64,000 bases of DNA from Candidatus Poribacteria bacterium (GCA_963668035.1 OY764073.1:4814653-4878652); one strand, 5' to 3'; counted from the stretch's first letter, positions 13,570 through 57,970 are shown. A program made the numbers and translations. Notes: generated by a model from the sequence alone, not told the origin.

Positions 13570-16110
13570 ATGAAAACGATGCAATTTTCGATGTTAATGC
13601 TACTTCTGGTTTCTATCTTTGTCCCACTGAATGCGCCTGCTGAGGATTACACAGAGTGGGGTTTACCTGAGGGTGCTACAAGGAGACTCGGAAAAGGTTC
13701 GCTGTACGGTAATATAACCTTTTCACCTGACAGTACCCTACTTGCTGTTTCGACATCCATAGGGATTTGGCTGTACGATGGGTACACTGGCAAAGAACGC
13801 AACCTGTTGACAAGGCATACTGGAGACGTTTCAAGTGTGGCGTTCAGTCCGGATGGAAAGACGATCGTAAGTAGCAGTTCTGCGGAATTTTATCTGTGGG
13901 ATGTCGCGAGCGGTACACACAAAGTTACGCTCACAGGACACGATGCCGACATCTCAAGCGTAGCCTTCAGTCCTGATGGAAAAACAATCGCAACTGCCGG
14001 AGAGGAAAAGGAAGGTTTGCTCCGGCTCTGGGACGTTGCTACCGGCACGCTCAAAGCGACACTCACAGGACATACGGATGGTATTTTAAGTGTGGCGTTC
14101 AGTCCCGATGGAAAAACGATCGCGAGCGGTGGAGATTCGCGGGACAAGACGATCCGGCTTTGGGATGTTGCTACCGGCACGCTCAAAGCGACACTCATCG
14201 GGCACAGCAGCGAGGTTGAAAGTATCGCGTTTAGTCCAGATGGCAAAACACTTGCCAGTTGTGGCGGTTGGGGAGATGAGAAGGTGTGGCTATGGGATGT
14301 TAGCAGTGGTGAACGGAGAACGACCCTCATCGGACATGTAGACGGGGTCCGTAGTGTGGCGTTCAGTCCTGATGGCAAAACCCTTGCGAGCGGCAGTTGG
14401 GACGGCACGGTGTGTTTATGGGACGTTGCCAGTGCCGCGTATAAGACCACGCTTTTAGGACATCGGGAGCGTGTTCGCGCTGTGGCGTTCAGTCCTGATG
14501 GCAAAACCCTTGCAAGTGGCAGTTGGGATGGTACGGTGCAGCTGTGGGATACTGGAAGTTTCGCGCATCGCGCGACCATCGCTGATCACCCGACAGGTTT
14601 CCGAGGTATCGCGTTCGGTCCAGACAGTCAAACGCTTGTGAGCGGCAGTTGGGATCGCACCGTCCGACTATGGGATACCACTACTGGTCATAATAGAACG
14701 ACATTTATTGGTCACACAAGTCCGGTAGAATCGGTTGCTTTCAGTTCGGATGGTAGAACCGTTGCCAGTAGCGGTGGCTTCAGTGTCATCAACAGCTGGT
14801 TCGTAGATGATTATACGGTAAGGTTATGGGACGCTGTTACCGGCAGACATAAAATGACACTTATCGGCCATAAATACCGTATCAATGATACAGCGTTTAG
14901 TCCAGATGGTCGCATCCTTGCCAGCTGCGGCGGACGTGACGACAAAATGGTGTCTCTGTGGGATACTGTTACAGGCGACCACTTAGCAACCTTGGTAGGT
15001 CATAAAGAGGATATATATAGTGTCGCGTTTAGCCCGGATGGCAAAACCCTTGCAAGCGGTGGTGGCTCAGAAATACGTTTATGGGATGTTACCAATGGAC
15101 AGCAGAAAGTAATAGGGGTTGGGTTACCCAACCCCAACCATACGAACGCGGTCTTGACACTTGCGTTTAGTCCGGACGGAAAGACCCTTGCCAGCGGTGG
15201 CAGGGATCGGGATGTGCACTTGTGGGATGTTGCTACCGGCGCGCACAAAATCGCCCTTACAGGACATACCGACAGAATCAATAGTGTCGCTTTCAGTCCG
15301 GATGGTAAGACGCTTGCAAGTGGTGGTGGTTGGGATGACAGAACAGTGCGTTTATGGGACCCTATACGTGGGGAACTGAAAGCGACCCACACAGTGTATG
15401 CTGGGGCAATAATGAGTCTGGCGTTCAGTCCCGATGGCAGCACACTCGCTATTGCCAGTGATGGTGGGATAATACTCCTATGGAGTCTCGGTCCCACAGT
15501 GGCACCGCCGCCGTTGCAGGCAGATGTGAACGGTGACGGCATTGAAGATGTGCATGATTTGGTGCTTGTTGCCGAAAACTTCGGACAGACGGGTCCAAAC
15601 GCTGCGGATGTAAACGGCGATGGTGTTGTTGATATCGCAGACCTTATCGAAGTCGCGGCAGCACTCGGTAACGCGGCAGCCGCGCCATCTATTGCGATGC
15701 TTAACGCAAAAGATGTGCAACACTGGCTTACACAAGCCCGGCACCTAAACCGGATGGATATAACCGCACAAAGTGGTATCCATTTCCTTGAACAGTTATT
15801 GATAGCGTTAGTGCCGACAGAGACGGTACTGTTGCCGAATTATCCAAACCCATTCAACCCGGAGACGTGGATACCGTATCAGTTGGCAAAACCTGCGAAT
15901 GTCAGCATATCCATCTATGCCGCCGATGGAAAACTTATTCGGATGTTGGTGTTAGGGTATCAACCTGTGGGTATCTATGAATCTCGGAACAGCGCGGCGT
16001 ATTGGGATGGAAAAAATGAACTCGGTGAACCTGTCGCCAGCGGTGTCTACTTCTACACGTTAACCGCGGGGGATTTTACGGCGACGCGAAAAATGTTAAT
16101 CCGAAAGTAA
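13570..16110 (+). CDS. secreted WD40-repeat protein, tandem paralogue with dockerin-like repeats and the same C-terminal domain
   Basis: Signal peptide, repeated FSPDGKT.ASG...RLWDV units, DVNGDGIEDVHDL/DVNGDGVVDIADL, and LLPNYPNPFNPETWIPYQL...SGVYFYTL. Confidence 0.8.
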   Translation: MKTMQFSMLMLLLVSIFVPLNAPAEDYTEWGLPEGATRRLGKGSLYGNITFSPDSTLLAVSTSIGIWLYDGYTGKERNLLTRHTGDVSSVAFSPDGKTIVSSSSAEFYLWDVASGTHKVTLTGHDADISSVAFSPDGKTIATAGEEKEGLLRLWDVATGTLKATLTGHTDGILSVAFSPDGKTIASGGDSRDKTIRLWDVATGTLKATLIGHSSEVESIAFSPDGKTLASCGGWGDEKVWLWDVSSGERRTTLIGHVDGVRSVAFSPDGKTLASGSWDGTVCLWDVASAAYKTTLLGHRERVRAVAFSPDGKTLASGSWDGTVQLWDTGSFAHRATIADHPTGFRGIAFGPDSQTLVSGSWDRTVRLWDTTTGHNRTTFIGHTSPVESVAFSSDGRTVASSGGFSVINSWFVDDYTVRLWDAVTGRHKMTLIGHKYRINDTAFSPDGRILASCGGRDDKMVSLWDTVTGDHLATLVGHKEDIYSVAFSPDGKTLASGGGSEIRLWDVTNGQQKVIGVGLPNPNHTNAVLTLAFSPDGKTLASGGRDRDVHLWDVATGAHKIALTGHTDRINSVAFSPDGKTLASGGGWDDRTVRLWDPIRGELKATHTVYAGAIMSLAFSPDGSTLAIASDGGIILLWSLGPTVAPPPLQADVNGDGIEDVHDLVLVAENFGQTGPNAADVNGDGVVDIADLIEVAAALGNAAAAPSIAMLNAKDVQHWLTQARHLNRMDITAQSGIHFLEQLLIALVPTETVLLPNYPNPFNPETWIPYQLAKPANVSISIYAADGKLIRMLVLGYQPVGIYESRNSAAYWDGKNELGEPVASGVYFYTLTAGDFTATRKMLIRK

Positions 16111-49213: not shown

Positions 49214-50017
49214 TCATTCGACAGCAACGATTGCGATTTTCCATCGGTCTGCTTGCTGAATGAGTGCGTTGGCATCCATAACAAAAGTTCGCCGCGCTTC
49301 TACTGCCAACACACCCGCTTTAACTTCATGCAACATTGCTAATGTTTGCATGCCGACCGTCGGTACATCAATACGGAAATCGTGATCCTCGGCGGATGCT
49401 TTCGCAACAACCACACCCTTCTTTCCCAAGTTCCCGCCTCTTTTAATAGTAGCATCTGTCCCTTCAATCGCTTCAATCGCAAGGACGATCTGATTCTTAA
49501 CGACAACAGTCTGCCCAATATCCATATTTGCGATCTGGCGTGCAGTTGTGATACCGAGCTCTATATCTGCTTGTTGGCTTGAAGTCGGTGGGCGCGCTGT
49601 TAAAACGCCCGGTTGTGGAAGAAGATCCTGGAGGTAACGGTCTTGCGGAAGGATAGTGAGTCCCTTGGATTCAAGATAGTTGAGTACTGCATTGACAATT
49701 GCGGCGGGTTTTTCACGGCGGTTCTGAACTAAAATTTTAATCGTAGTCGTATCTATTTGGAACGGACGCAGCAGGATGTTTTTTTCAACCTTACCGATAA
49801 TCACGACCTCTCGGACACCGGCATCGAGAAGTGTTCGAGCGATCTTTTGAATCTGTCCGACCCCATAAGTATGAATTTCGGCGGTAATTCCGGCAAAGCG
49901 TTGTGCATCAGATTTTGTAATTTGGACGATAACAGGCTTCCGATCCTGGGCGACAGCGGCACGCGCCAATAGCACCGGCAACTCACCTGCCCCCGCAATA
50001 ATCCCTAACTTTTCCAT
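49214..50017 (-). CDS. lpxI: UDP-2,3-diacylglucosamine pyrophosphatase LpxI (DUF1009)
   Basis: MEKLGIIAGAGELPVLLA and the C-terminal FRIDVPTVGMQTL motif. Sits in lipid A gene context. Confidence 0.8.
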   Translation of the reverse strand: MEKLGIIAGAGELPVLLARAAVAQDRKPVIVQITKSDAQRFAGITAEIHTYGVGQIQKIARTLLDAGVREVVIIGKVEKNILLRPFQIDTTTIKILVQNRREKPAAIVNAVLNYLESKGLTILPQDRYLQDLLPQPGVLTARPPTSSQQADIELGITTARQIANMDIGQTVVVKNQIVLAIEAIEGTDATIKRGGNLGKKGVVVAKASAEDHDFRIDVPTVGMQTLAMLHEVKAGVLAVEARRTFVMDANALIQQADRWKIAIVAVE

Positions 50018-50066
50018 AATTTTATTCTGATGTTTTCATCAATCTTCGGACAGGAGCCCCCATGCT

Positions 50067-51095
50067 TTAGCTTGGGGAGGAATGTCCGCTCCTATAGTTA
50101 AAGTTAATGCGTGTGAGTGTTTTAAAATCAGATCGTTTCGCACCTGTTGTTAAGCGTTTGCCAGTTTCTAAACTATAAAGTGCAAACAAGCCTTTCGCAT
50201 TGACGCCAGATAGGCGTGTCAAACCATATTTGATATGTTTAACCAAAGTGTTTTTGATTAAACCTTGACCTAATACAGTTCCACCATATCTTGAACGTTT
50301 TCGTCCTTTTGATTCTTGTTCTCTGTGCAACGTTCTGCGTTTGATAGGTATAGGGGATATACAAAAAATATCAGTATTATCAGGTATCTCTGTTCCACCT
50401 ACAGTGTGATATGCCAGACACCAACTATCCACACAATGTGCGTCAAATATTTCTGATAGTTTCTTTGACGACTTCTTGAGACCGAGACGATCGCGTATCT
50501 CTTTGGTTTCGTATCCTTGTAGTGTCAGTAGTTTCCAACGCTTTTCTATCTCGGTATAGAACCATTGCTTACCGACTTCCAAAGGACTGAAAGATTGATT
50601 CCATTTATTCGCACGTTTAATTGTCCGTGCTTTAATGTCTTCTACACAGACGTGTGTGATAGGATAGAGTTTGGAAAGCCAGTCAAGAATACGCAACTTC
50701 CAATCCCACCTTGCACGTGTCCCCGCGGGCATACGTTCTTTGTTCGCAAGGCGGTTCGTTCTGTTTGGACGGTTCGGACACTTTCGGGAACGTCTGCCTC
50801 TACGCAACTCACGACGCTTTTCTACTTTCTTTCCTACCTTGTTGTGAGCATCCGCTTGCACATTCAAATAGGTATGTGACTCTGATTTGACAGTCCAGCC
50901 TTCTTTCTTACTACCGGGGTCTACACCTACACATATCTCTTGTGTCCATTCCGTCGTATCGTAGTTGAGTCTAATACAGAATATACCATTAGACCAATAG
51001 GGTGTTGCCAATCTTTTTTTGATTAGCATACCGGCTTTGTTCGGATGAGTTGGCATTAAGCGTTTACCGTCTTGACTCGTTACAGGAACAAACAT
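50067..51095 (-). CDS. isrB: IsrB-type OMEGA nuclease (IscB homologue lacking HNH; RRXRR/PLMP + split RuvC)
   Basis: PLMP-like GKRLMPTHPNKAGMLIKK, RuvC-I GVDPGSKKEGW, bridge helix KRRELRRGRRSRK, RuvC-II HVCVEDIKA, and RuvC-III FDAHCVDSW. There is no Cys/His HNH insert and no Zn ribbon. Confidence 0.8.
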   Translation of the reverse strand: MFVPVTSQDGKRLMPTHPNKAGMLIKKRLATPYWSNGIFCIRLNYDTTEWTQEICVGVDPGSKKEGWTVKSESHTYLNVQADAHNKVGKKVEKRRELRRGRRSRKCPNRPNRTNRLANKERMPAGTRARWDWKLRILDWLSKLYPITHVCVEDIKARTIKRANKWNQSFSPLEVGKQWFYTEIEKRWKLLTLQGYETKEIRDRLGLKKSSKKLSEIFDAHCVDSWCLAYHTVGGTEIPDNTDIFCISPIPIKRRTLHREQESKGRKRSRYGGTVLGQGLIKNTLVKHIKYGLTRLSGVNAKGLFALYSLETGKRLTTGAKRSDFKTLTRINFNYRSGHSSPS

Positions 51096-51296
51096 ACTTT
51101 GTAATCTCCCTTTCGGGTTATATATTGCCCCTTCCAGATCGCAGTATCAAAGTGGGATCAGACGAGGGGAGTATCCGAAACATAGTTGAGGCTGCCACGC
51201 CCAAGATACTGCGATATTTTACTGTAGAAAATAGTTTAACTTGTGGAGTGAACGTTTGGCATACGCTTCGCACAAGCCCCATGCTTTAGCTTGGGG
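51096..51296 (-). ncRNA. candidate omega-RNA scaffold of the IsrB element
   Basis: ORF-free leader on the isrB strand. Perfect 11-bp long-range pairing of 51138-51148 with 51205-51215, a CCC-GAAA-GGG tetraloop hairpin at 51108-51117, and the terminal palindrome at 51276-51296. The position matches the IscB/IsrB paradigm. Confidence 0.55.
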
Positions 51297-51330
51297 TTAT
51301 TGACCAGAAACCCAATATTTAAAAAGTCCG

Positions 51331-52155
51331 TTAACCCATTAGGGTGCGATTGGGCTGGCTAAATCCGATGCCACGTTTGGAGGTCTCAATAAATTCAAGA
51401 AGGTATTCAACTTCTGGAGTCGGTTCGAGTTCTTCCTTGACTCTCGCAACCGCATGTTTCAGAGGTATACCGGAACGGAACAAGATGCGGAACGCCTTTT
51501 TCAACGCTGCAAGCGTTTCAGGAGTCAGCTGAGACAACGGATTAATCCGCGATGTTCGGATGCCGATACGGTTGAGACTCCGTACACGTGCGGGTTGTCC
51601 TGCAGACAGCATAAAGGGTGGAATATCTTGGACAATCTTTGAGAACCCGCCCGCCATCGCCATTTTGCCGACACGCACATATTGGTGGAGCGCGGCATGC
51701 GCTCCCAACCGAACATCATCTTCAATCACAACATGCCCCGCAAGCGACACAAAATTTGCCATGATCGTCCTATTGCCGACGATAGTGTCATGTGCAAGAT
51801 TAACCCAATTCATCAGCAGATTGTTGTCGCCAACGATAGTTGATCCCTCCTCAAATGTTGATCTGGAGATAGAAACGTATTCGCGCAAAATATTGCGATC
51901 ACCGATCTTCACATAACTCCGCCAACCATCGTACTTCAAGTCTTTAGATTGATTCCCAATAGTAGCCCCGAAGAAAATCTCACATTCTTCACCAATCGTT
52001 GTCCATTTCTCGATCTGAACATGCGGACCTATTACGGTGCCACGCCCGATATGAACGTCTTCACCGATAAGGCTATAGGGGCCAACTTTGACGCCCTCTT
52101 CCAGGGTTGCTTTTGGAGAGATAATAGCCGTCGGATGAATATTAGTTTCTAACAT
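51331..52155 (-). CDS. lpxA: acyl-ACP--UDP-N-acetylglucosamine O-acyltransferase
   Basis: Left-handed beta-helix hexapeptide repeats (IHPTAIISPKATLEEGVKVGPYSLIG...) plus the LpxA C-terminal helical domain. Confidence 0.9.
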   Translation of the reverse strand: MLETNIHPTAIISPKATLEEGVKVGPYSLIGEDVHIGRGTVIGPHVQIEKWTTIGEECEIFFGATIGNQSKDLKYDGWRSYVKIGDRNILREYVSISRSTFEEGSTIVGDNNLLMNWVNLAHDTIVGNRTIMANFVSLAGHVVIEDDVRLGAHAALHQYVRVGKMAMAGGFSKIVQDIPPFMLSAGQPARVRSLNRIGIRTSRINPLSQLTPETLAALKKAFRILFRSGIPLKHAVARVKEELEPTPEVEYLLEFIETSKRGIGFSQPNRTLMG

Positions 52156-52172: not shown

Positions 52173-53459
52173 TCAGACAGATGCCAGGACGATGGATAGT
52201 TCAGCCTCAGTCGCAAGTTCGTCTCCTACATAAACCCGTCCTTCAATTCGCGCAAGCCTGCTGCGCAATTGGGCAACTTCTATTTCCAATCGCAGTTGAT
52301 CGCCAGGAATAACAGCGCGTCGGAACGTTGCTTTACTTATTGAACGGAAGTAACCGAGTTCACCCTCTTTACCGATATCCCGAAGCACAAGCCATGCAGC
52401 GAGTTGCGCCAAAGCTTCAATCTGTAGCACCCCCGGCATCACAGGCTGCGTCGGGAAGTGTCCTTCAAAGATCGGTTCGTTGTACGTCACGTTCTTGATA
52501 CCAACCGCCCGTTTTTTACTTTCATATTCGATGACTCTATCTACCATACACATCGGATGCCGGTGCGGTAACACTTCGTAGATCTCTGTTACCTCAATAG
52601 GTTCTTGAACCGGGGGCTGTTGAAGATACCCCGCCTCAGCGAGGGCTTGCACAAATTCAGCATGGAAGGTATGACCTGTCCGCATCGCCATAACGTGCGC
52701 CTTCGGGAGATGCCCAGCCAAATAAAGATCGCCAATCAGGTCTAAAACTTTATGGCGGACAAACTCATCGTCAAAGCGGAGCGGCGTGCTCGGTTCACCT
52801 GCTGCGTTGATAACCAGAACGTTATCATAACTGGCACCTTTTCCGATGCCGAGTGCTTGGAGGGCTTCGATCTCATTTTCAAAACAGAAGCTCCGCGCGG
52901 GTGCTATGTCACGGGCATACAATTCTGGCGTTATTTCAAATGTCGCTATTTGCGGAGTCGTTTGTGGGTGGGCGTAAACGAATGTCACTTCTAACGCATC
53001 AGCGGGCAATAAAACGAGTTGTCTGTCCCCTGACGAGAGTGAAAATGGCTCTGCCACCTCAATAAAATTCCGAGGTGCATCTTGTGAGATAAGTCCTACC
53101 GCTTGAATATTTTCCACGTAAGGCATCGCACTCCCGTCGAGACCCGGCGGCTCCTGAGCATCCAACGCTACGATCGCATTGTCAACACCGAGTCCCCCTA
53201 AAGCAGAAAGAACATGTTCCACGCTACTCACCGTTGTCCCATTACTGCGTAAGCTGGTGCAGCGTGGCAAAACGTCTGACCAGTTTTCCGGACATACCTT
53301 CACTTCCGGAGCGTCTGCTATATCCACACGCCGAAAGACGATACCGGAATCCACCGGTGCCGGTTTCAAGGTTAATGTCACAGGTTCCCCTAACATTAAC
53401 CCCTTTCCTGTAATTGTTATCTCGTTTTGAATTGTTTGCTGTGAATCTGCTTTTTCCAT
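52173..53459 (-). CDS. lpxC: bifunctional UDP-3-O-acyl-GlcNAc deacetylase / 3-hydroxyacyl-ACP dehydratase (LpxC-FabZ fusion)
   Basis: N-terminal LpxC (QQTIQNEITITGKGLMLGEPVTL, HTFHAEF) fused to FabZ (LPHRHPMCMVDRV, GHFPTQPVMPGVLQIEALAQ). Confidence 0.9.
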   Translation of the reverse strand: MEKADSQQTIQNEITITGKGLMLGEPVTLTLKPAPVDSGIVFRRVDIADAPEVKVCPENWSDVLPRCTSLRSNGTTVSSVEHVLSALGGLGVDNAIVALDAQEPPGLDGSAMPYVENIQAVGLISQDAPRNFIEVAEPFSLSSGDRQLVLLPADALEVTFVYAHPQTTPQIATFEITPELYARDIAPARSFCFENEIEALQALGIGKGASYDNVLVINAAGEPSTPLRFDDEFVRHKVLDLIGDLYLAGHLPKAHVMAMRTGHTFHAEFVQALAEAGYLQQPPVQEPIEVTEIYEVLPHRHPMCMVDRVIEYESKKRAVGIKNVTYNEPIFEGHFPTQPVMPGVLQIEALAQLAAWLVLRDIGKEGELGYFRSISKATFRRAVIPGDQLRLEIEVAQLRSRLARIEGRVYVGDELATEAELSIVLASV

Positions 53460-57007: not shown

Positions 57008-57925
57008 GTGCAATTGGCTATCAAATTTGAAGACGATAACCCAATTTCCAATCATCGCCTCTATTATGGCGATAATCTCTCGATTCTTCAGGAATATATT
57101 TCTGATGAGAGTGTCAACCTGATTTACATCGATCCGCCGTTTAACACCGGCAGGCTTCAACAGCGCACACAAATTCAAGTTGAAGCGGATGCCCAAGGGG
57201 ACCGTGTCGGCTTCCAAGGCAAGACATACCGGATAACAAAAGGCGAAACGATACACTATTCCGATAAGTTCGAGAGTTTAGATGAATACTTGCAATTTTT
57301 ACGTCCCCGTTTTGAAGAGGCGTACCGAGTGCTACACCCGCACGGTAGCTTTTTTCTTCATATCGATTACCGGGCGGTGCATTATTGTAAGGTTAGGCTT
57401 GACGAGATTTTCGGCTTAGAATCGTTCATGAACGAGATTATCTGGGCTTATGATTACGGAGGGCGTGCCAAGTCATGGTGGTCCCCTAAACACGACAATA
57501 TCTTGTGGTACGCTAAAAATCCGAAGCACTATACCTTCAATTTTGAAGAGATGGATAGGATTCCGTATATGGCACCCGGTTTGGTCGGTAAAGAGAAGGC
57601 AGCACGCGGCAAAACGCCAACGGATGTTTGGTGGCATACCATCGTCAACACCAATGGAAAAGAAAAAACCGGGTATCCAACGCAAAAACCGCTTGGGATA
57701 CTTAATCGTATCGTCAAGGTGCATTCAGCACCAGGCGACACGCTTTTAGATTTTTTTGCCGGTAGCGGTACGCTTGGAGAAGCAGCAGCAAGCCAAAACC
57801 GTTCCGCTATTCTGGTTGATAACAATATCCCCGCAATCAGGTGTATCATGGATAGATTAGAGGCTTACGGTATTGAACTCACTAATGCTGATTACCAGAC
57901 ACTCGGCACGCACACAGTGGAATAG
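57008..57925 (+). CDS. beta-class DNA methyltransferase (N4/N6 type), no cognate nuclease nearby
   Basis: Motif IV NLIYIDPPFNTG and motif I LLDFFAGSGTLGEAA. GTG start at 57008. Confidence 0.8.
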   Translation: MQLAIKFEDDNPISNHRLYYGDNLSILQEYISDESVNLIYIDPPFNTGRLQQRTQIQVEADAQGDRVGFQGKTYRITKGETIHYSDKFESLDEYLQFLRPRFEEAYRVLHPHGSFFLHIDYRAVHYCKVRLDEIFGLESFMNEIIWAYDYGGRAKSWWSPKHDNILWYAKNPKHYTFNFEEMDRIPYMAPGLVGKEKAARGKTPTDVWWHTIVNTNGKEKTGYPTQKPLGILNRIVKVHSAPGDTLLDFFAGSGTLGEAAASQNRSAILVDNNIPAIRCIMDRLEAYGIELTNADYQTLGTHTVE

Positions 57926-57970
57926 ATTGGGGGAATAGATTGGGGGAATAGATTGGGGGAATAGATTGGG
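57921..57970. repeat. 13-bp perfect tandem repeat AATAGATTGGGGG x3.8
   Basis: Units at 57921, 57934 and 57947, plus a partial unit at 57960. The first unit contains the methyltransferase stop codon TAG. Confidence 0.9.

What the first reader, a model, noticed from the sequence alone, without database searches (positions are those of the whole stretch)
51096..51330. Structured ORF-free leader upstream of isrB: candidate omega-RNA with guide at the element boundary
The 235 nt between the isrB ATG (51095) and the lpxA stop (51331) contain no credible ORF but show clear RNA-like structure on the isrB strand. There is a perfect 11-bp long-range pairing (51138-51148 ATCGCAGTATC with 51205-51215 GATACTGCGAT) enclosing a ~56-nt module. 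A CCC-GAAA-GGG (GNRA tetraloop) hairpin at 51108-51117 overlaps the AGGGAG ribosome-binding site. The imperfect palindrome at 51276-51296 sits at the distal end. In IscB/IsrB loci the omega-RNA scaffold lies exactly here, 5' of the ORF on the same strand and running into it. Its guide is read from the DNA just outside the element end. Under that paradigm the guide would be the minus-strand sequence of roughly 51297-51320, in the lpxA-proximal flank.
Basis: partly seen in the sequence, partly recalled or inferred. Interest (0 to 1): 0.8.

Follow-up and report, generated by a model that had tools for sequence, protein, structure and literature searches.

The report
IsrB guide RNA (omega-RNA) leader
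The 235-base leader is the structured guide-RNA scaffold of a small mobile element carrying the RNA-guided nickase IsrB, inserted between lpxA and lpxI of a sponge-symbiont (Poribacteria) genome. This is a correct call of an already known kind of system, not a new one.

Summary

The downstream ORF (50067-51095, minus strand) is an IsrB. It hits only Pfam RRXRR, has no HNH domain, and matches DtIsrB (8DMB) at E=7e-35.

Across 80 Poribacteria copies, conservation starts abruptly at GTCA (window 51304). Everything 5' of that point differs in every copy. This is what an omega-RNA scaffold with a flank-encoded guide should look like.

It is 93% paired across 61 distinct leaders, against 31-46% when partners are slid. 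34 pairs show compensatory changes.

Rfam HEARO matches full length but weakly: 19.6 bits here and up to 40.8 bits in relatives, against a threshold of 83.

A sister genome supplies an empty site. Insertion is precise, without target duplication, next to (G)ATGA, which matches the NTGA motif known for IsrB.

- The guide ends at 51304/51305; 51297-51303 is scaffold.
- The "palindrome" is the transposon-end hairpin, repeated at 50058-77.
- Single-sequence folding energy is not significant (z=-0.47).

Verdict: new member of a known kind, modest interest. Side observation: about 60% of copies sit one base upstream of a host start codon.

The parts
50041..51304 (-). Whole non-autonomous IS200/IS605-type element (1,264 bp): omega-RNA end (right end, RE), isrB, hairpin end (left end, LE). 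There is a 1-nt ambiguity (G) at the junctions.
   Evidence: Conservation boundaries across 80 copies. Filled versus empty site comparison, L019 versus L157.
51305..51324 (-). Predicted guide segment (UUUUAAAUAUUGGGUUUCUG), encoded by host flank between the lpxA stop (51331-51333) and the element. G51304 would also match the donor joint. The length of 16-20 nt is by analogy to IscB/IsrB.
   Evidence: The 20 nt 5' of GTCA are unrelated in every copy. The sequence is unique in the window. The 20-nt guide length comes from DtIsrB (PMC9581776). Assignment as guide is inferred, not shown.
51096..51304 (-). Omega-RNA scaffold (209 nt up to the isrB ATG).
   Evidence: HEARO RF02033 full-length match at 51120-51304, 19.6 bits. 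nhmmer profile of 61 homologous leaders hits 51084-51304, E=7e-71, the only copy in the window. Covariation.
51227..51304 (-). Guide-adaptor region. S1 is 51298-51304 paired with 51227-51233, and has two mismatches in this copy. It encloses SL1 and SL2.
   Evidence: Helix 1: 84% paired, 4 pairs with changes on both sides.
51277..51296 (-). SL1: CCCCAAGC-UAAA-GCAUGGGG. This is the transposon-end (RE) subterminal hairpin.
   Evidence: Helix 2: 5 of 7 pairs have compensatory changes. An exact second copy lies at 50058-50077.
51240..51276 (-). SL2: outer stem CUUGUG/CACAAG and inner stem AGCGU/ACGUU. Loop UGCCA (51257-51261) forms the adaptor pseudoknot with UGGCA (51193-51197).
   Evidence: Helices 3-5. 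Pseudoknot 84% paired, with an A-U to G-C switch in 31 versus 19 sequences.
51135..51224 (-). Long-range stem. CAG/CUG is 51222-51224 paired with 51135-51137. Together they enclose two hairpins.
   Evidence: Helices 6-7: 100% and 96.5% paired, 7 pairs with compensatory changes., I2.
51189..51202 (-). Hairpin with conserved GUGGCA loop, the partner of the SL2 loop in the adaptor pseudoknot.
   Evidence: Helix 8 (3 covarying pairs).
51158..51178 (-). Hairpin UCGGAU-ACUCCCCUC-GUCUGA. Loop CCCCU (51165-51169) pairs with AGGGG (51128-51132), giving the nexus-type pseudoknot next to SL7.
   Evidence: Helix 9: 100% paired, 3 covarying pairs. Pseudoknot 97% paired, with an A-U to U-A switch in 42 versus 13 sequences.
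51108..51117 (-). Terminal hairpin CCC-GAAA-GGG whose 3' arm is the isrB SD sequence. Equivalent to SL7 of DtIsrB omega-RNA.
   Evidence: Helix 11: 98.9% paired, 2 of 3 pairs covary. In DtIsrB, SL7 carries the SD (PMC9581776).
51088..51102 (-). Hairpin ACAAAG-UAU-GUUUGU that sequesters the isrB start codon. G.G at the closing pair in this copy; C-G in the consensus.
   Evidence: Helix 12: 90% paired. AAA/UUU changes to GAA/UUC by a synonymous Phe codon change.
50067..51095 (-). isrB: 342 aa, PLMP-type N-terminus (KRLMPTHP), split RuvC, no HNH.
   Evidence: Only Pfam hit is PF14239 RRXRR, E=8.7e-30. 8DMB DtIsrB E=6.8e-35 over residues 3-287, with the DPG, ED and H..D motifs aligned. 3,618 homologues found.
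50048..50087 (-). LE-side extended hairpin GGACA-uuccu-CCCC..UAAA..GGGG-gcucc-UGUCC. The isrB stop codon (50067-50069) lies in its loop.
   Evidence: The outer stem covaries among copies (GGCA/TGCC, GTGT/ACAC, GATT/AATC, GGCT/AGCC).
50036..50040 (-). G-ATGA: target/transposon-adjacent motif (TAM) abutting the LE. In a donor joint it would follow the guide match.
   Evidence: ATGA in 69 of 74 copies, GTGA in 4, AGGA in 1; the preceding base is G in 70 of 74. Empty site. NTGA is the TAM of DtIsrB (PMC9581776).

Best explanation
The leader is the scaffold of an IsrB omega-RNA (HEARO-type guide RNA). It belongs to a 1,264-bp non-autonomous IS200/IS605-family element (50041-51304) inserted in the lpxC/fabZ-lpxA-lpxI operon, in the same orientation as the operon.

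Proposed mechanism, by analogy to published IsrB/IscB work:
1. Transcription coming from lpxA reads through the last roughly 16-20 nt of host flank (51305-~51324, the guide) into the element's right end.
2. The scaffold folds into S1, SL1, SL2, a long central stem with two hairpins, two pseudoknots, and an SD-bearing terminal hairpin.
3. IsrB, translated from the same transcript, binds this RNA.
4. If the element is excised by a TnpA supplied in trans, the rejoined site reads guide-match + (G)ATGA.
5. The IsrB-omega-RNA complex recognises that site and nicks it, which favours reinstatement of the element by recombination.

The SD hairpin and the start-codon hairpin probably also throttle isrB translation.

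What is shown here: homology of the protein and the RNA, the element boundaries, covariation of the helices, precise insertion, and the adjacent ATGA motif.

What is inferred: transcription, RNA processing, binding, nicking and homing.
For: Protein:
- RRXRR is the only Pfam hit and there is no HNH.
- The best solved-structure match is DtIsrB 8DMB, E=6.8e-35. IscB structures match only the N-terminal part (residues ~3-157 at most), at E of 1e-8 to 1e-11.

RNA:
- HEARO RF02033 aligns over model positions 1-211 at 51120-51304, with 19.6 bits.
- Homologous leaders reach 25-40.8 bits, with E down to 5.6e-5. Each match starts at the conservation boundary.

Boundary:
- Column identity jumps from about 30% to about 90% at GTCA.
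- The 20 nt upstream differ in all distinct copies.

Structure:
- RNAalifold predicts 30 pairs, 21 of them with compensatory changes.
- In the manual 63-pair model, 92.9% of cells are paired, against 31-46% when partners are slid. 34 pairs show changes on both sides. The covariation score is 0.278 against at most 0.062 when slid, and 0 of 500 shuffles reach it.
- Each of the two pseudoknots has a compensatory switch.
- The architecture matches the published IsrB omega-RNA core, specifically the variant in which SL2 pairs with one hairpin loop and the other hairpin loop pairs with the single strand next to SL7 (PMC9581776, sections read).

Mobility and TAM:
- L019 (filled) and L157 (empty) differ by exactly the element, with no duplication.
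- 69 of 74 copies abut ATGA, which fits the NTGA TAM of DtIsrB.
- There are many intact copies per genome: 13 in OZ244616 among the best 80 loci. ORF lengths are 340-343 aa in 66 of 80 loci.

Transcription:
- lpxA lies upstream on the same strand.
- No promoter-like site was found on that strand near the leader.
- This agrees with the published reliance of IscB omega-RNAs on outside transcription (bioRxiv 10.1101/2023.03.14.532601).
Against: - There are no expression, binding or cleavage data for this element or any Poribacteria copy.
- The HEARO score is far below Rfam's gathering threshold (19.6 against 83).
- MFE of the single sequence is no better than shuffles.
- S1 in this copy has two mismatches (U.U, C.U). 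About a third of the copies share them (columns 3/90 and 4/88).
- No tnpA lies in the element or within 3 kb of any of the 80 copies, so the source of mobility is unidentified.
- No empty site was found for this particular lpxA-lpxI insertion.
- The sequences are closely related (mean column identity 76%), so some of the apparent covariation reflects shared descent of subfamilies.
Confidence: 0.87

Rival explanations
1. The leader is only a cis-acting 5' UTR that controls isrB translation through SD and start-codon sequestration, with no guide function.
For: The SD hairpin and the start-codon hairpin both covary (helices 11 and 12). PMC9581776 itself suggests a role for SL7 in regulating expression.
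Against: About 190 nt of additional covarying structure and two pseudoknots lie upstream of those hairpins. The leader shows HEARO homology. The conserved block ends exactly at the transposon end. IsrB proteins are known to need this RNA (PMC9581776). The two roles are not exclusive.
Confidence: 0.05
2. Conservation reflects DNA-level function as the transposon right end (a TnpA substrate), and the RNA structure is incidental.
For: SL1 is duplicated at the other end. SL1 is dispensable for DtIsrB nicking but is linked to transposition (PMC9581776).
Against: IS200/IS605 ends need only a subterminal hairpin plus a few flanking bases (established knowledge; PMC9581776, ref. 10). Here, compensatory changes maintain long-range pairs and pseudoknots over 210 nt. 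This reading explains SL1 only.
Confidence: 0.03
3. This copy is a stranded, no longer functional relic: an intact-looking ORF and RNA, but no TnpA in the genome and no homing.
For: No tnpA is nearby. S1 is weakened in this copy. The same insertion is present in the only other assembly that carries an identical LpxI.
Against: The ORF is full length with the RuvC motifs aligned. Near-identical multi-copy families and a presence/absence polymorphism between sister genomes indicate recent mobility in the lineage.
Confidence: 0.15

Closest known systems
DtIsrB omega-RNA and the five other IsrB omega-RNAs characterised by Hirano et al. 2022 (PMC9581776; PDB 8DMB)
   Same: - Position 5' of isrB on the same strand.
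- A 5' guide taken from the flank.
- S1/SL1/SL2 guide-adaptor region, with SL1 being the transposon-end hairpin.
- Two pseudoknots, in the CsIsrB/K2IsrB/BbIsrB-type arrangement.
- A terminal hairpin carrying the SD.
- An NTGA-type TAM (ATGA here).
- Protein homologous at E=7e-35.
   Different: The scaffold is shorter, about 209 nt against 262 nt, and peripheral stem-loops (SL3/6/8-type) are not evident. The mapping of helices onto the S/SL nomenclature is my reading of the paper's text, not an alignment. Function is untested.
Rfam HEARO (RF02033), the IscB-associated omega-RNA
   Same: Full-length alignment to the model (positions 1-211), starting at the same GUCA...CCCC..UAAA..GGGG 5' motif, with the same genomic position relative to the nuclease gene.
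   Different: It scores 19.6 bits here and 25-40.8 bits in relatives, against a gathering score of 83. The associated protein lacks HNH (IsrB, not IscB). Meers et al. note that the Rfam model lacks 3' elements, and they used a 15-bit cutoff.
TnpB omega-RNA / reRNA of IS200/IS605 (ISDra2, ISGst)
   Same: It is a transposon-end-derived scaffold joined to a flank-encoded guide. It also shares the proposed role of cutting the donor joint to restore the element.
   Different: The TnpB RNA lies at the 3' end of tnpB with a 3' guide and a 5' TAM, and it is transcribed from inside the element. The fold and the protein family (Cas12 lineage) are unrelated.
Cas9 crRNA:tracrRNA
   Same: It has a 5' guide, a repeat:anti-repeat-like S1, and a nexus. 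IsrB and Cas9 share the RuvC/bridge-helix scaffold (PMC9581776).
   Different: It is a single transposon-encoded RNA with no CRISPR array. The RNA replaces the REC lobe, and the enzyme is a nickase.

Membership tests
IsrB/IscB omega-RNA (OMEGA guide RNA; Rfam HEARO RF02033) | Lies immediately 5' of an iscB/isrB ORF, on the same strand. | tested here: met
   Scaffold at 51096-51304 and isrB ATG at 51095, both on the minus strand.
IsrB/IscB omega-RNA (OMEGA guide RNA; Rfam HEARO RF02033) | Reaches Rfam's gathering score for HEARO. | tested here: not met
   19.6 bits against 83, E=0.45. No gathering-level hit anywhere in the window. Homologous leaders reach 25-40.8 bits, with E down to 5.6e-5. 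This is homology below the curated cutoff.
IsrB/IscB omega-RNA (OMEGA guide RNA; Rfam HEARO RF02033) | The constant scaffold begins at the transposon end, and the sequence 5' of it is locus-specific (the guide). | tested here: met
   Sharp conservation boundary at GTCA. Unrelated 20-mers lie upstream in 64 distinct copies. The empty site places the junction there.
IsrB/IscB omega-RNA (OMEGA guide RNA; Rfam HEARO RF02033) | Conserved multi-helix fold with adaptor and nexus pseudoknots, supported by covariation. | tested here: met
   63 pairs, 92.9% paired against 31-46% when slid, 34 pairs with compensatory changes. Pseudoknots 84% and 97% paired, with one compensatory switch each. Support for the pseudoknots is moderate.
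IsrB/IscB omega-RNA (OMEGA guide RNA; Rfam HEARO RF02033) | The terminal hairpin contains the nuclease gene's SD sequence. | tested here: met
   CCC-GAAA-GGG(AG) at 51108-51117; the pairs covary (helix 11); compared with PMC9581776.
IsrB/IscB omega-RNA (OMEGA guide RNA; Rfam HEARO RF02033) | The donor joint presents the guide match followed by the nuclease's TAM (NTGA/NTG for IsrB). | tested here: met
   ATGA abuts the other end in 69 of 74 copies. The L157 empty site reads flank-G-ATGA. TAM values are from PMC9581776. The TAM preference of this protein is not measured.
IsrB/IscB omega-RNA (OMEGA guide RNA; Rfam HEARO RF02033) | The RNA is expressed, bound by the nuclease, and directs guide-dependent nicking. 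| not testable with these tools
   No transcriptome or biochemical data were available.
IsrB protein | About 350 aa, with an N-terminal PLMP domain and a split RuvC with bridge helix, and no HNH. | tested here: met
   342 aa with KRLMPTHP at residues 11-18. Only RRXRR is found in Pfam. Aligned to DtIsrB over residues 3-287, with the DPG, ED and H..D motifs conserved.
IS200/IS605-family non-autonomous element | Subterminal hairpins on the same strand at both ends, with no terminal inverted repeats. | tested here: met
   The identical 20-nt hairpin occurs as a direct repeat at 51277-51296 and 50058-50077. It covaries across copies.
IS200/IS605-family non-autonomous element | Insertion next to a fixed 4-5-nt target, without target-site duplication. 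| tested here: met
   L019 versus L157; (G)ATGA in 69-70 of 74 copies.
IS200/IS605-family non-autonomous element | A Y1 (HUH) TnpA transposase is available. | tested here: inconclusive
   No second ORF lies in the element. No recurrent neighbouring gene occurs within 3 kb of the 80 copies. This is as reported for most IscB/IsrB elements. Supply of TnpA in trans elsewhere in the genome was not searched.

The most novel reading that the evidence does not exclude
This Poribacteria IsrB family may be specialised for landing one base upstream of host start codons. Its ATGA motif would be the host AUG plus A. Examples include rpsJ and leuC.

Two things would follow. Host promoters and 5' UTRs would supply the guide and drive the omega-RNA. 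Translation of the displaced host gene would have to be restored from the element's left end. One possibility is termination-reinitiation from the isrB stop codon, which sits in the LE hairpin loop about 27 nt before the host AUG.

The positional bias itself is measured. The functional coupling is speculation.
Probability: 0.2. Interest if true: 0.55.

Novelty: new member of a known kind. Interest (0 to 1): 0.3.

Why it matters
This result annotates a structured RNA that Rfam's curated threshold misses.

It fixes the exact boundaries, guide and TAM of a compact IsrB system: a 342-aa nickase, a scaffold of about 209 nt, and an ATGA motif. The family has expanded to many intact copies in genomes of uncultured sponge symbionts.

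Compact, apparently active OMEGA systems of this kind are candidates for nickase engineering.

The family also provides a well-populated natural alignment for studying omega-RNA structure.

It does not change understanding of how OMEGA systems work.

Tried and rejected
- Single-sequence folding gives no signal above shuffles, so it was dropped as evidence.
- I looked for an empty lpxA-lpxI site for this exact insertion.
  - 75 relatives of the lpxI locus were too diverged in the intergenic region to serve.
  - The only other contig with an identical LpxI carries the same insertion.
  - An empty-site-specific pattern in the JGI metagenomes gave 0 hits.
  - The empty site finally came from another copy: L019, upstream of rpsJ, compared with sister genome L157.
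- I looked for tnpA or any recurrent neighbour by clustering all ORFs of at least 90 aa in the 3-kb flanks of 80 loci. None was found.
- I looked for a promoter on the isrB strand upstream of the leader. None was found above chance.
- I looked for further omega-RNA copies or standalone scaffolds in the window. None was found.
- The 54-aa sense ORF in the leader was rejected as a gene because it is not conserved.
- I did not build a covariance model.
- The HEARO discovery paper and Altae-Tran 2021 are not held in the library. What I say about them is second-hand, via PMC9581776, PMC9755519 and the Meers preprint.

Full report
**Observation.**
- The 11-bp pairing 51138-51148 / 51205-51215 is perfect, with 56 nt between the arms.
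- CCCGAAAGGG lies at 51117-51108 on the minus strand and runs into AGGGAG, just upstream of the ATG at 51095.
- The palindrome CCCCAAGC-TAAA-GCATGGGG is at 51277-51296.
- A 54-aa ORF does exist in the leader. It is not conserved in 61 homologous leaders.
- Thermodynamic folding of the single sequence is no better than shuffled controls (z = -0.47). So the claim of "clear structure" could not be settled from this sequence alone.

**The gene.** ORF 50067-51095 (342 aa) hits only Pfam RRXRR (E=8.7e-30) and no HNH family.
- Its best match among solved structures is the IsrB of Desulfovirgula thermocuniculi (8DMB, E=6.8e-35, residues 3-287).
- The PLMP-type N-terminus and the DPG, ED and H..D RuvC motifs align with it.
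- IscB structures match only the N-terminal part (residues ~3-157 at most), at 1e-8 to 1e-11.
- The gene lies between lpxA (51331-52155) and lpxI (49214-50017), all on the minus strand.

**Relatives and boundaries.** The protein has 3,618 database homologues. The best 120 are at least 78% identical, and the few named by a source are from Candidatus Poribacteria.
- A genome scan returned 185 loci. The 80 kept are Poribacteria MAGs (one is titled only 'uncultured bacterium'), with up to 13 copies from one chromosome (OZ244616).
- Aligning 330 nt upstream of the ATG shows column identity jumping from about 30% to about 90% exactly at GTCAAT, which is window 51304.
- The 20 nt before that point are unrelated in the 64 distinct copies.
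- Downstream, conservation runs through an extended hairpin and ...CCGAAGAT(T), then 0-4 variable bases, then (G)ATGA. After that the sequences are unrelated.
- ATGA is present in 69 of 74 scorable copies, and G precedes it in 70.

**Homology to a known RNA.** Rfam HEARO (RF02033) aligns over its whole length to 51120-51304. It scores only 19.6 bits (E=0.45) against a gathering score of 83.
- In nine relatives, five leaders gave full-length HEARO matches of 25-40.8 bits, with E down to 5.6e-5. Each match starts at the conservation boundary.
- Nothing in the 64-kb window reaches any Rfam gathering score.
- Meers et al. used a 15-bit cutoff for the same purpose and noted that the Rfam model lacks 3' elements.

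**Structure.** RNAalifold on 61 distinct leaders (alignment A1) predicts 30 pairs.
- I wrote a 63-pair, 12-helix model and counted it on the MAFFT alignment, which was not fitted to any structure.
- 92.9% of cells are paired, against 31-46% when partners are slid by 1-3 columns.
- 34 pairs have changes on both sides.
- The covariation score is 0.278, against at most 0.062 when slid, and 0 of 500 shuffles reach it.
- Two pseudoknots each show one compensatory switch.
  - The SL2 loop UGCCA pairs with the GUGGCA hairpin loop, with A-U in 31 sequences and G-C in 19.
  - The hairpin loop CCCCU pairs with AGGGG just 5' of the SD hairpin, with A-U in 42 sequences and U-A in 13.
- This layout comprises S1, SL1 (the transposon-end hairpin), SL2, a long central stem with two hairpins, adaptor and nexus pseudoknots, and an SD-bearing terminal hairpin. 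It matches the IsrB omega-RNA core described by Hirano et al.
- It matches their variant in which SL2 pairs with one hairpin and the other hairpin pairs with the single strand next to SL7.
- The scaffold here is about 209 nt, against 262 nt in DtIsrB.
- A further hairpin (51088-51102) encloses the isrB start codon. It covaries through a synonymous Phe codon change (helix 12).

**Mobility, junction and TAM.** No empty lpxA-lpxI site could be found for this copy.
- For copy L019, which lies immediately upstream of rpsJ in OZ244616, the sister genome OZ250160 (L157, S10 protein 100% identical) has the uninterrupted site.
  - Empty: ...aaggaagcatgaG|ATGAAAAATC.
  - Filled: ...aaggaagcatga|GTCAAT...GAAGAGTG|ATGAAAAATC.
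- The insertion is therefore precise and has no target duplication, with one ambiguous G.
- The ambiguity does not matter at the RNA level. The transcript reads flank-G-UCAA and the donor joint reads flank-G-ATGA.
- So the guide match can run through the G, and the adjacent motif is ATGA. This fits the NTGA/NTG TAMs measured for IsrB orthologues.
- The intact site reads G-TCAA, which is not such a motif, so the filled locus should not be a target.
- In the window the element is 50041-51304, the motif is 50036-50039 (G at 50040), and the guide is 51305 to about 51320-51324 (UUUUAAAUAUUGGGUUUCUG).
- Geometry agrees with Meers et al., who state that the HEARO-like region upstream of iscB is bounded by the right end. 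There are 8 nt from the end to the hairpin on the omega-RNA side, and about 17-21 nt on the other side.

**How it most likely works.** Most of this is inferred from the family.
- The guide lies outside the element, so transcription must start outside it. lpxA is upstream on the same strand, and no promoter-like site lies on that strand near the leader.
- This matches the published orientation bias of iscB elements.
- The RNA would be bound by IsrB and would direct nicking of the rejoined site after TnpA-mediated excision, promoting restoration of the element.
- No tnpA lies in the element or within 3 kb of any of the 80 copies. The element is therefore non-autonomous, as is usual for this family, and the transposase source is unknown.
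- The SD and start-codon hairpins suggest that folding of the RNA, or its binding by IsrB, limits isrB translation. Hirano et al. raise the same idea for SL7.

**Rivals.**
- A purely cis-regulatory 5' UTR does not explain 190 nt of extra covarying structure or the HEARO homology.
- A purely DNA-level transposon end explains SL1 only.
- A stranded relic cannot be excluded for this particular copy. S1 carries two mismatches, and no transposase or empty site was found. However, the ORF is intact and the family is clearly recently mobile.

**Verdict.** This is a new, Rfam-subthreshold member of the known IsrB omega-RNA kind. It is useful as annotation and possibly as a compact nickase candidate, but it is not surprising to a specialist.

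**Side observation.** The most interesting by-product concerns where the copies sit.
- In 44 of 74 copies, the ATG of the terminal ATGA opens an ORF of at least 60 codons, against 9 in the +2 frame. The examples include rpsJ and leuC.
- An SD-like 4-mer lies 4-18 nt before the left junction in 34 of 79 copies, against 1 and 14 in two control windows.
- These elements therefore typically sit between a host gene's SD sequence and its start codon.

Noticed in passing
L001-L080 right junctions (e.g. L019:4057, L078:4058, L014:4060); window 50036-50040: In 44 of 74 copies the ATG of the terminal ATGA is the start of an ORF of at least 60 codons (9 in the +2 frame). Examples include rpsJ (L019) and leuC (L078). 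An SD-like 4-mer lies 4-18 nt before the left junction in 34 of 79 copies (1 and 14 in two control windows). The elements therefore sit between the SD sequence and the AUG of host genes. In the window copy the ATGA opens only a 5-codon ORF, 22 nt before the lpxI start.
   Followed up: partly
window 50048-50087 (minus strand): The left-end hairpin is longer than the 20-nt repeat: GGACA-(5 nt)-CCCC..UAAA..GGGG-(5 nt)-UGUCC. The outer stem covaries among copies. Its 5' arm encodes the last IsrB residues, and the TAA stop codon is in the loop, 27 nt before the ATGA. Possible roles are a TnpA substrate, a transcript 3' structure, or translational coupling to the downstream gene.
   Followed up: partly
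window 51088-51102 (minus strand): A hairpin ACAAA(C/G)-UAU-GUUUGU encloses the isrB AUG. Copies with ACGAAC have GUUCGU, which is a synonymous Phe codon change. It may correspond to SL8 of DtIsrB omega-RNA. I could not check this against the published sequence.
   Followed up: partly
L082-L084, L090-L092, L096, L099, L105, L114, L125, L134, L142: about 100 nt upstream of lpxI: Many Poribacteria carry a different conserved sequence of about 60-90 nt between lpxA and lpxI (...ctacggagaggcacgtcttatgcaaaacctacctaaacgaaccgcaaggtaata..ATG). It is absent from the window, and in several of these loci lpxA is not directly adjacent. It could be another small insert or a leader.
   Followed up: no
window 57919-57970: A perfect tandem repeat: 4 copies of the 13-nt unit GGAATAGATTGGG.
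   Followed up: no
window 14021-14301: A 132-nt unit repeated 2.1 times at 75% identity. This is probably a repeat-domain coding sequence.
   Followed up: no
window 50000-50600 versus flanks: The element is lower in G+C (0.385-0.45) than the neighbouring lpx genes (0.47-0.52), which is consistent with a mobile origin.
   Followed up: no
window 52173-53459 (minus strand): A single 428-aa ORF upstream of lpxA. In the matching contig L156, the gene immediately upstream of lpxA, at the corresponding position, runs off the locus end and is recorded as a 407-residue product with Pfam hits to both LpxC and FabA/FabZ. This points to a fused LpxC-FabZ protein.
   Followed up: no
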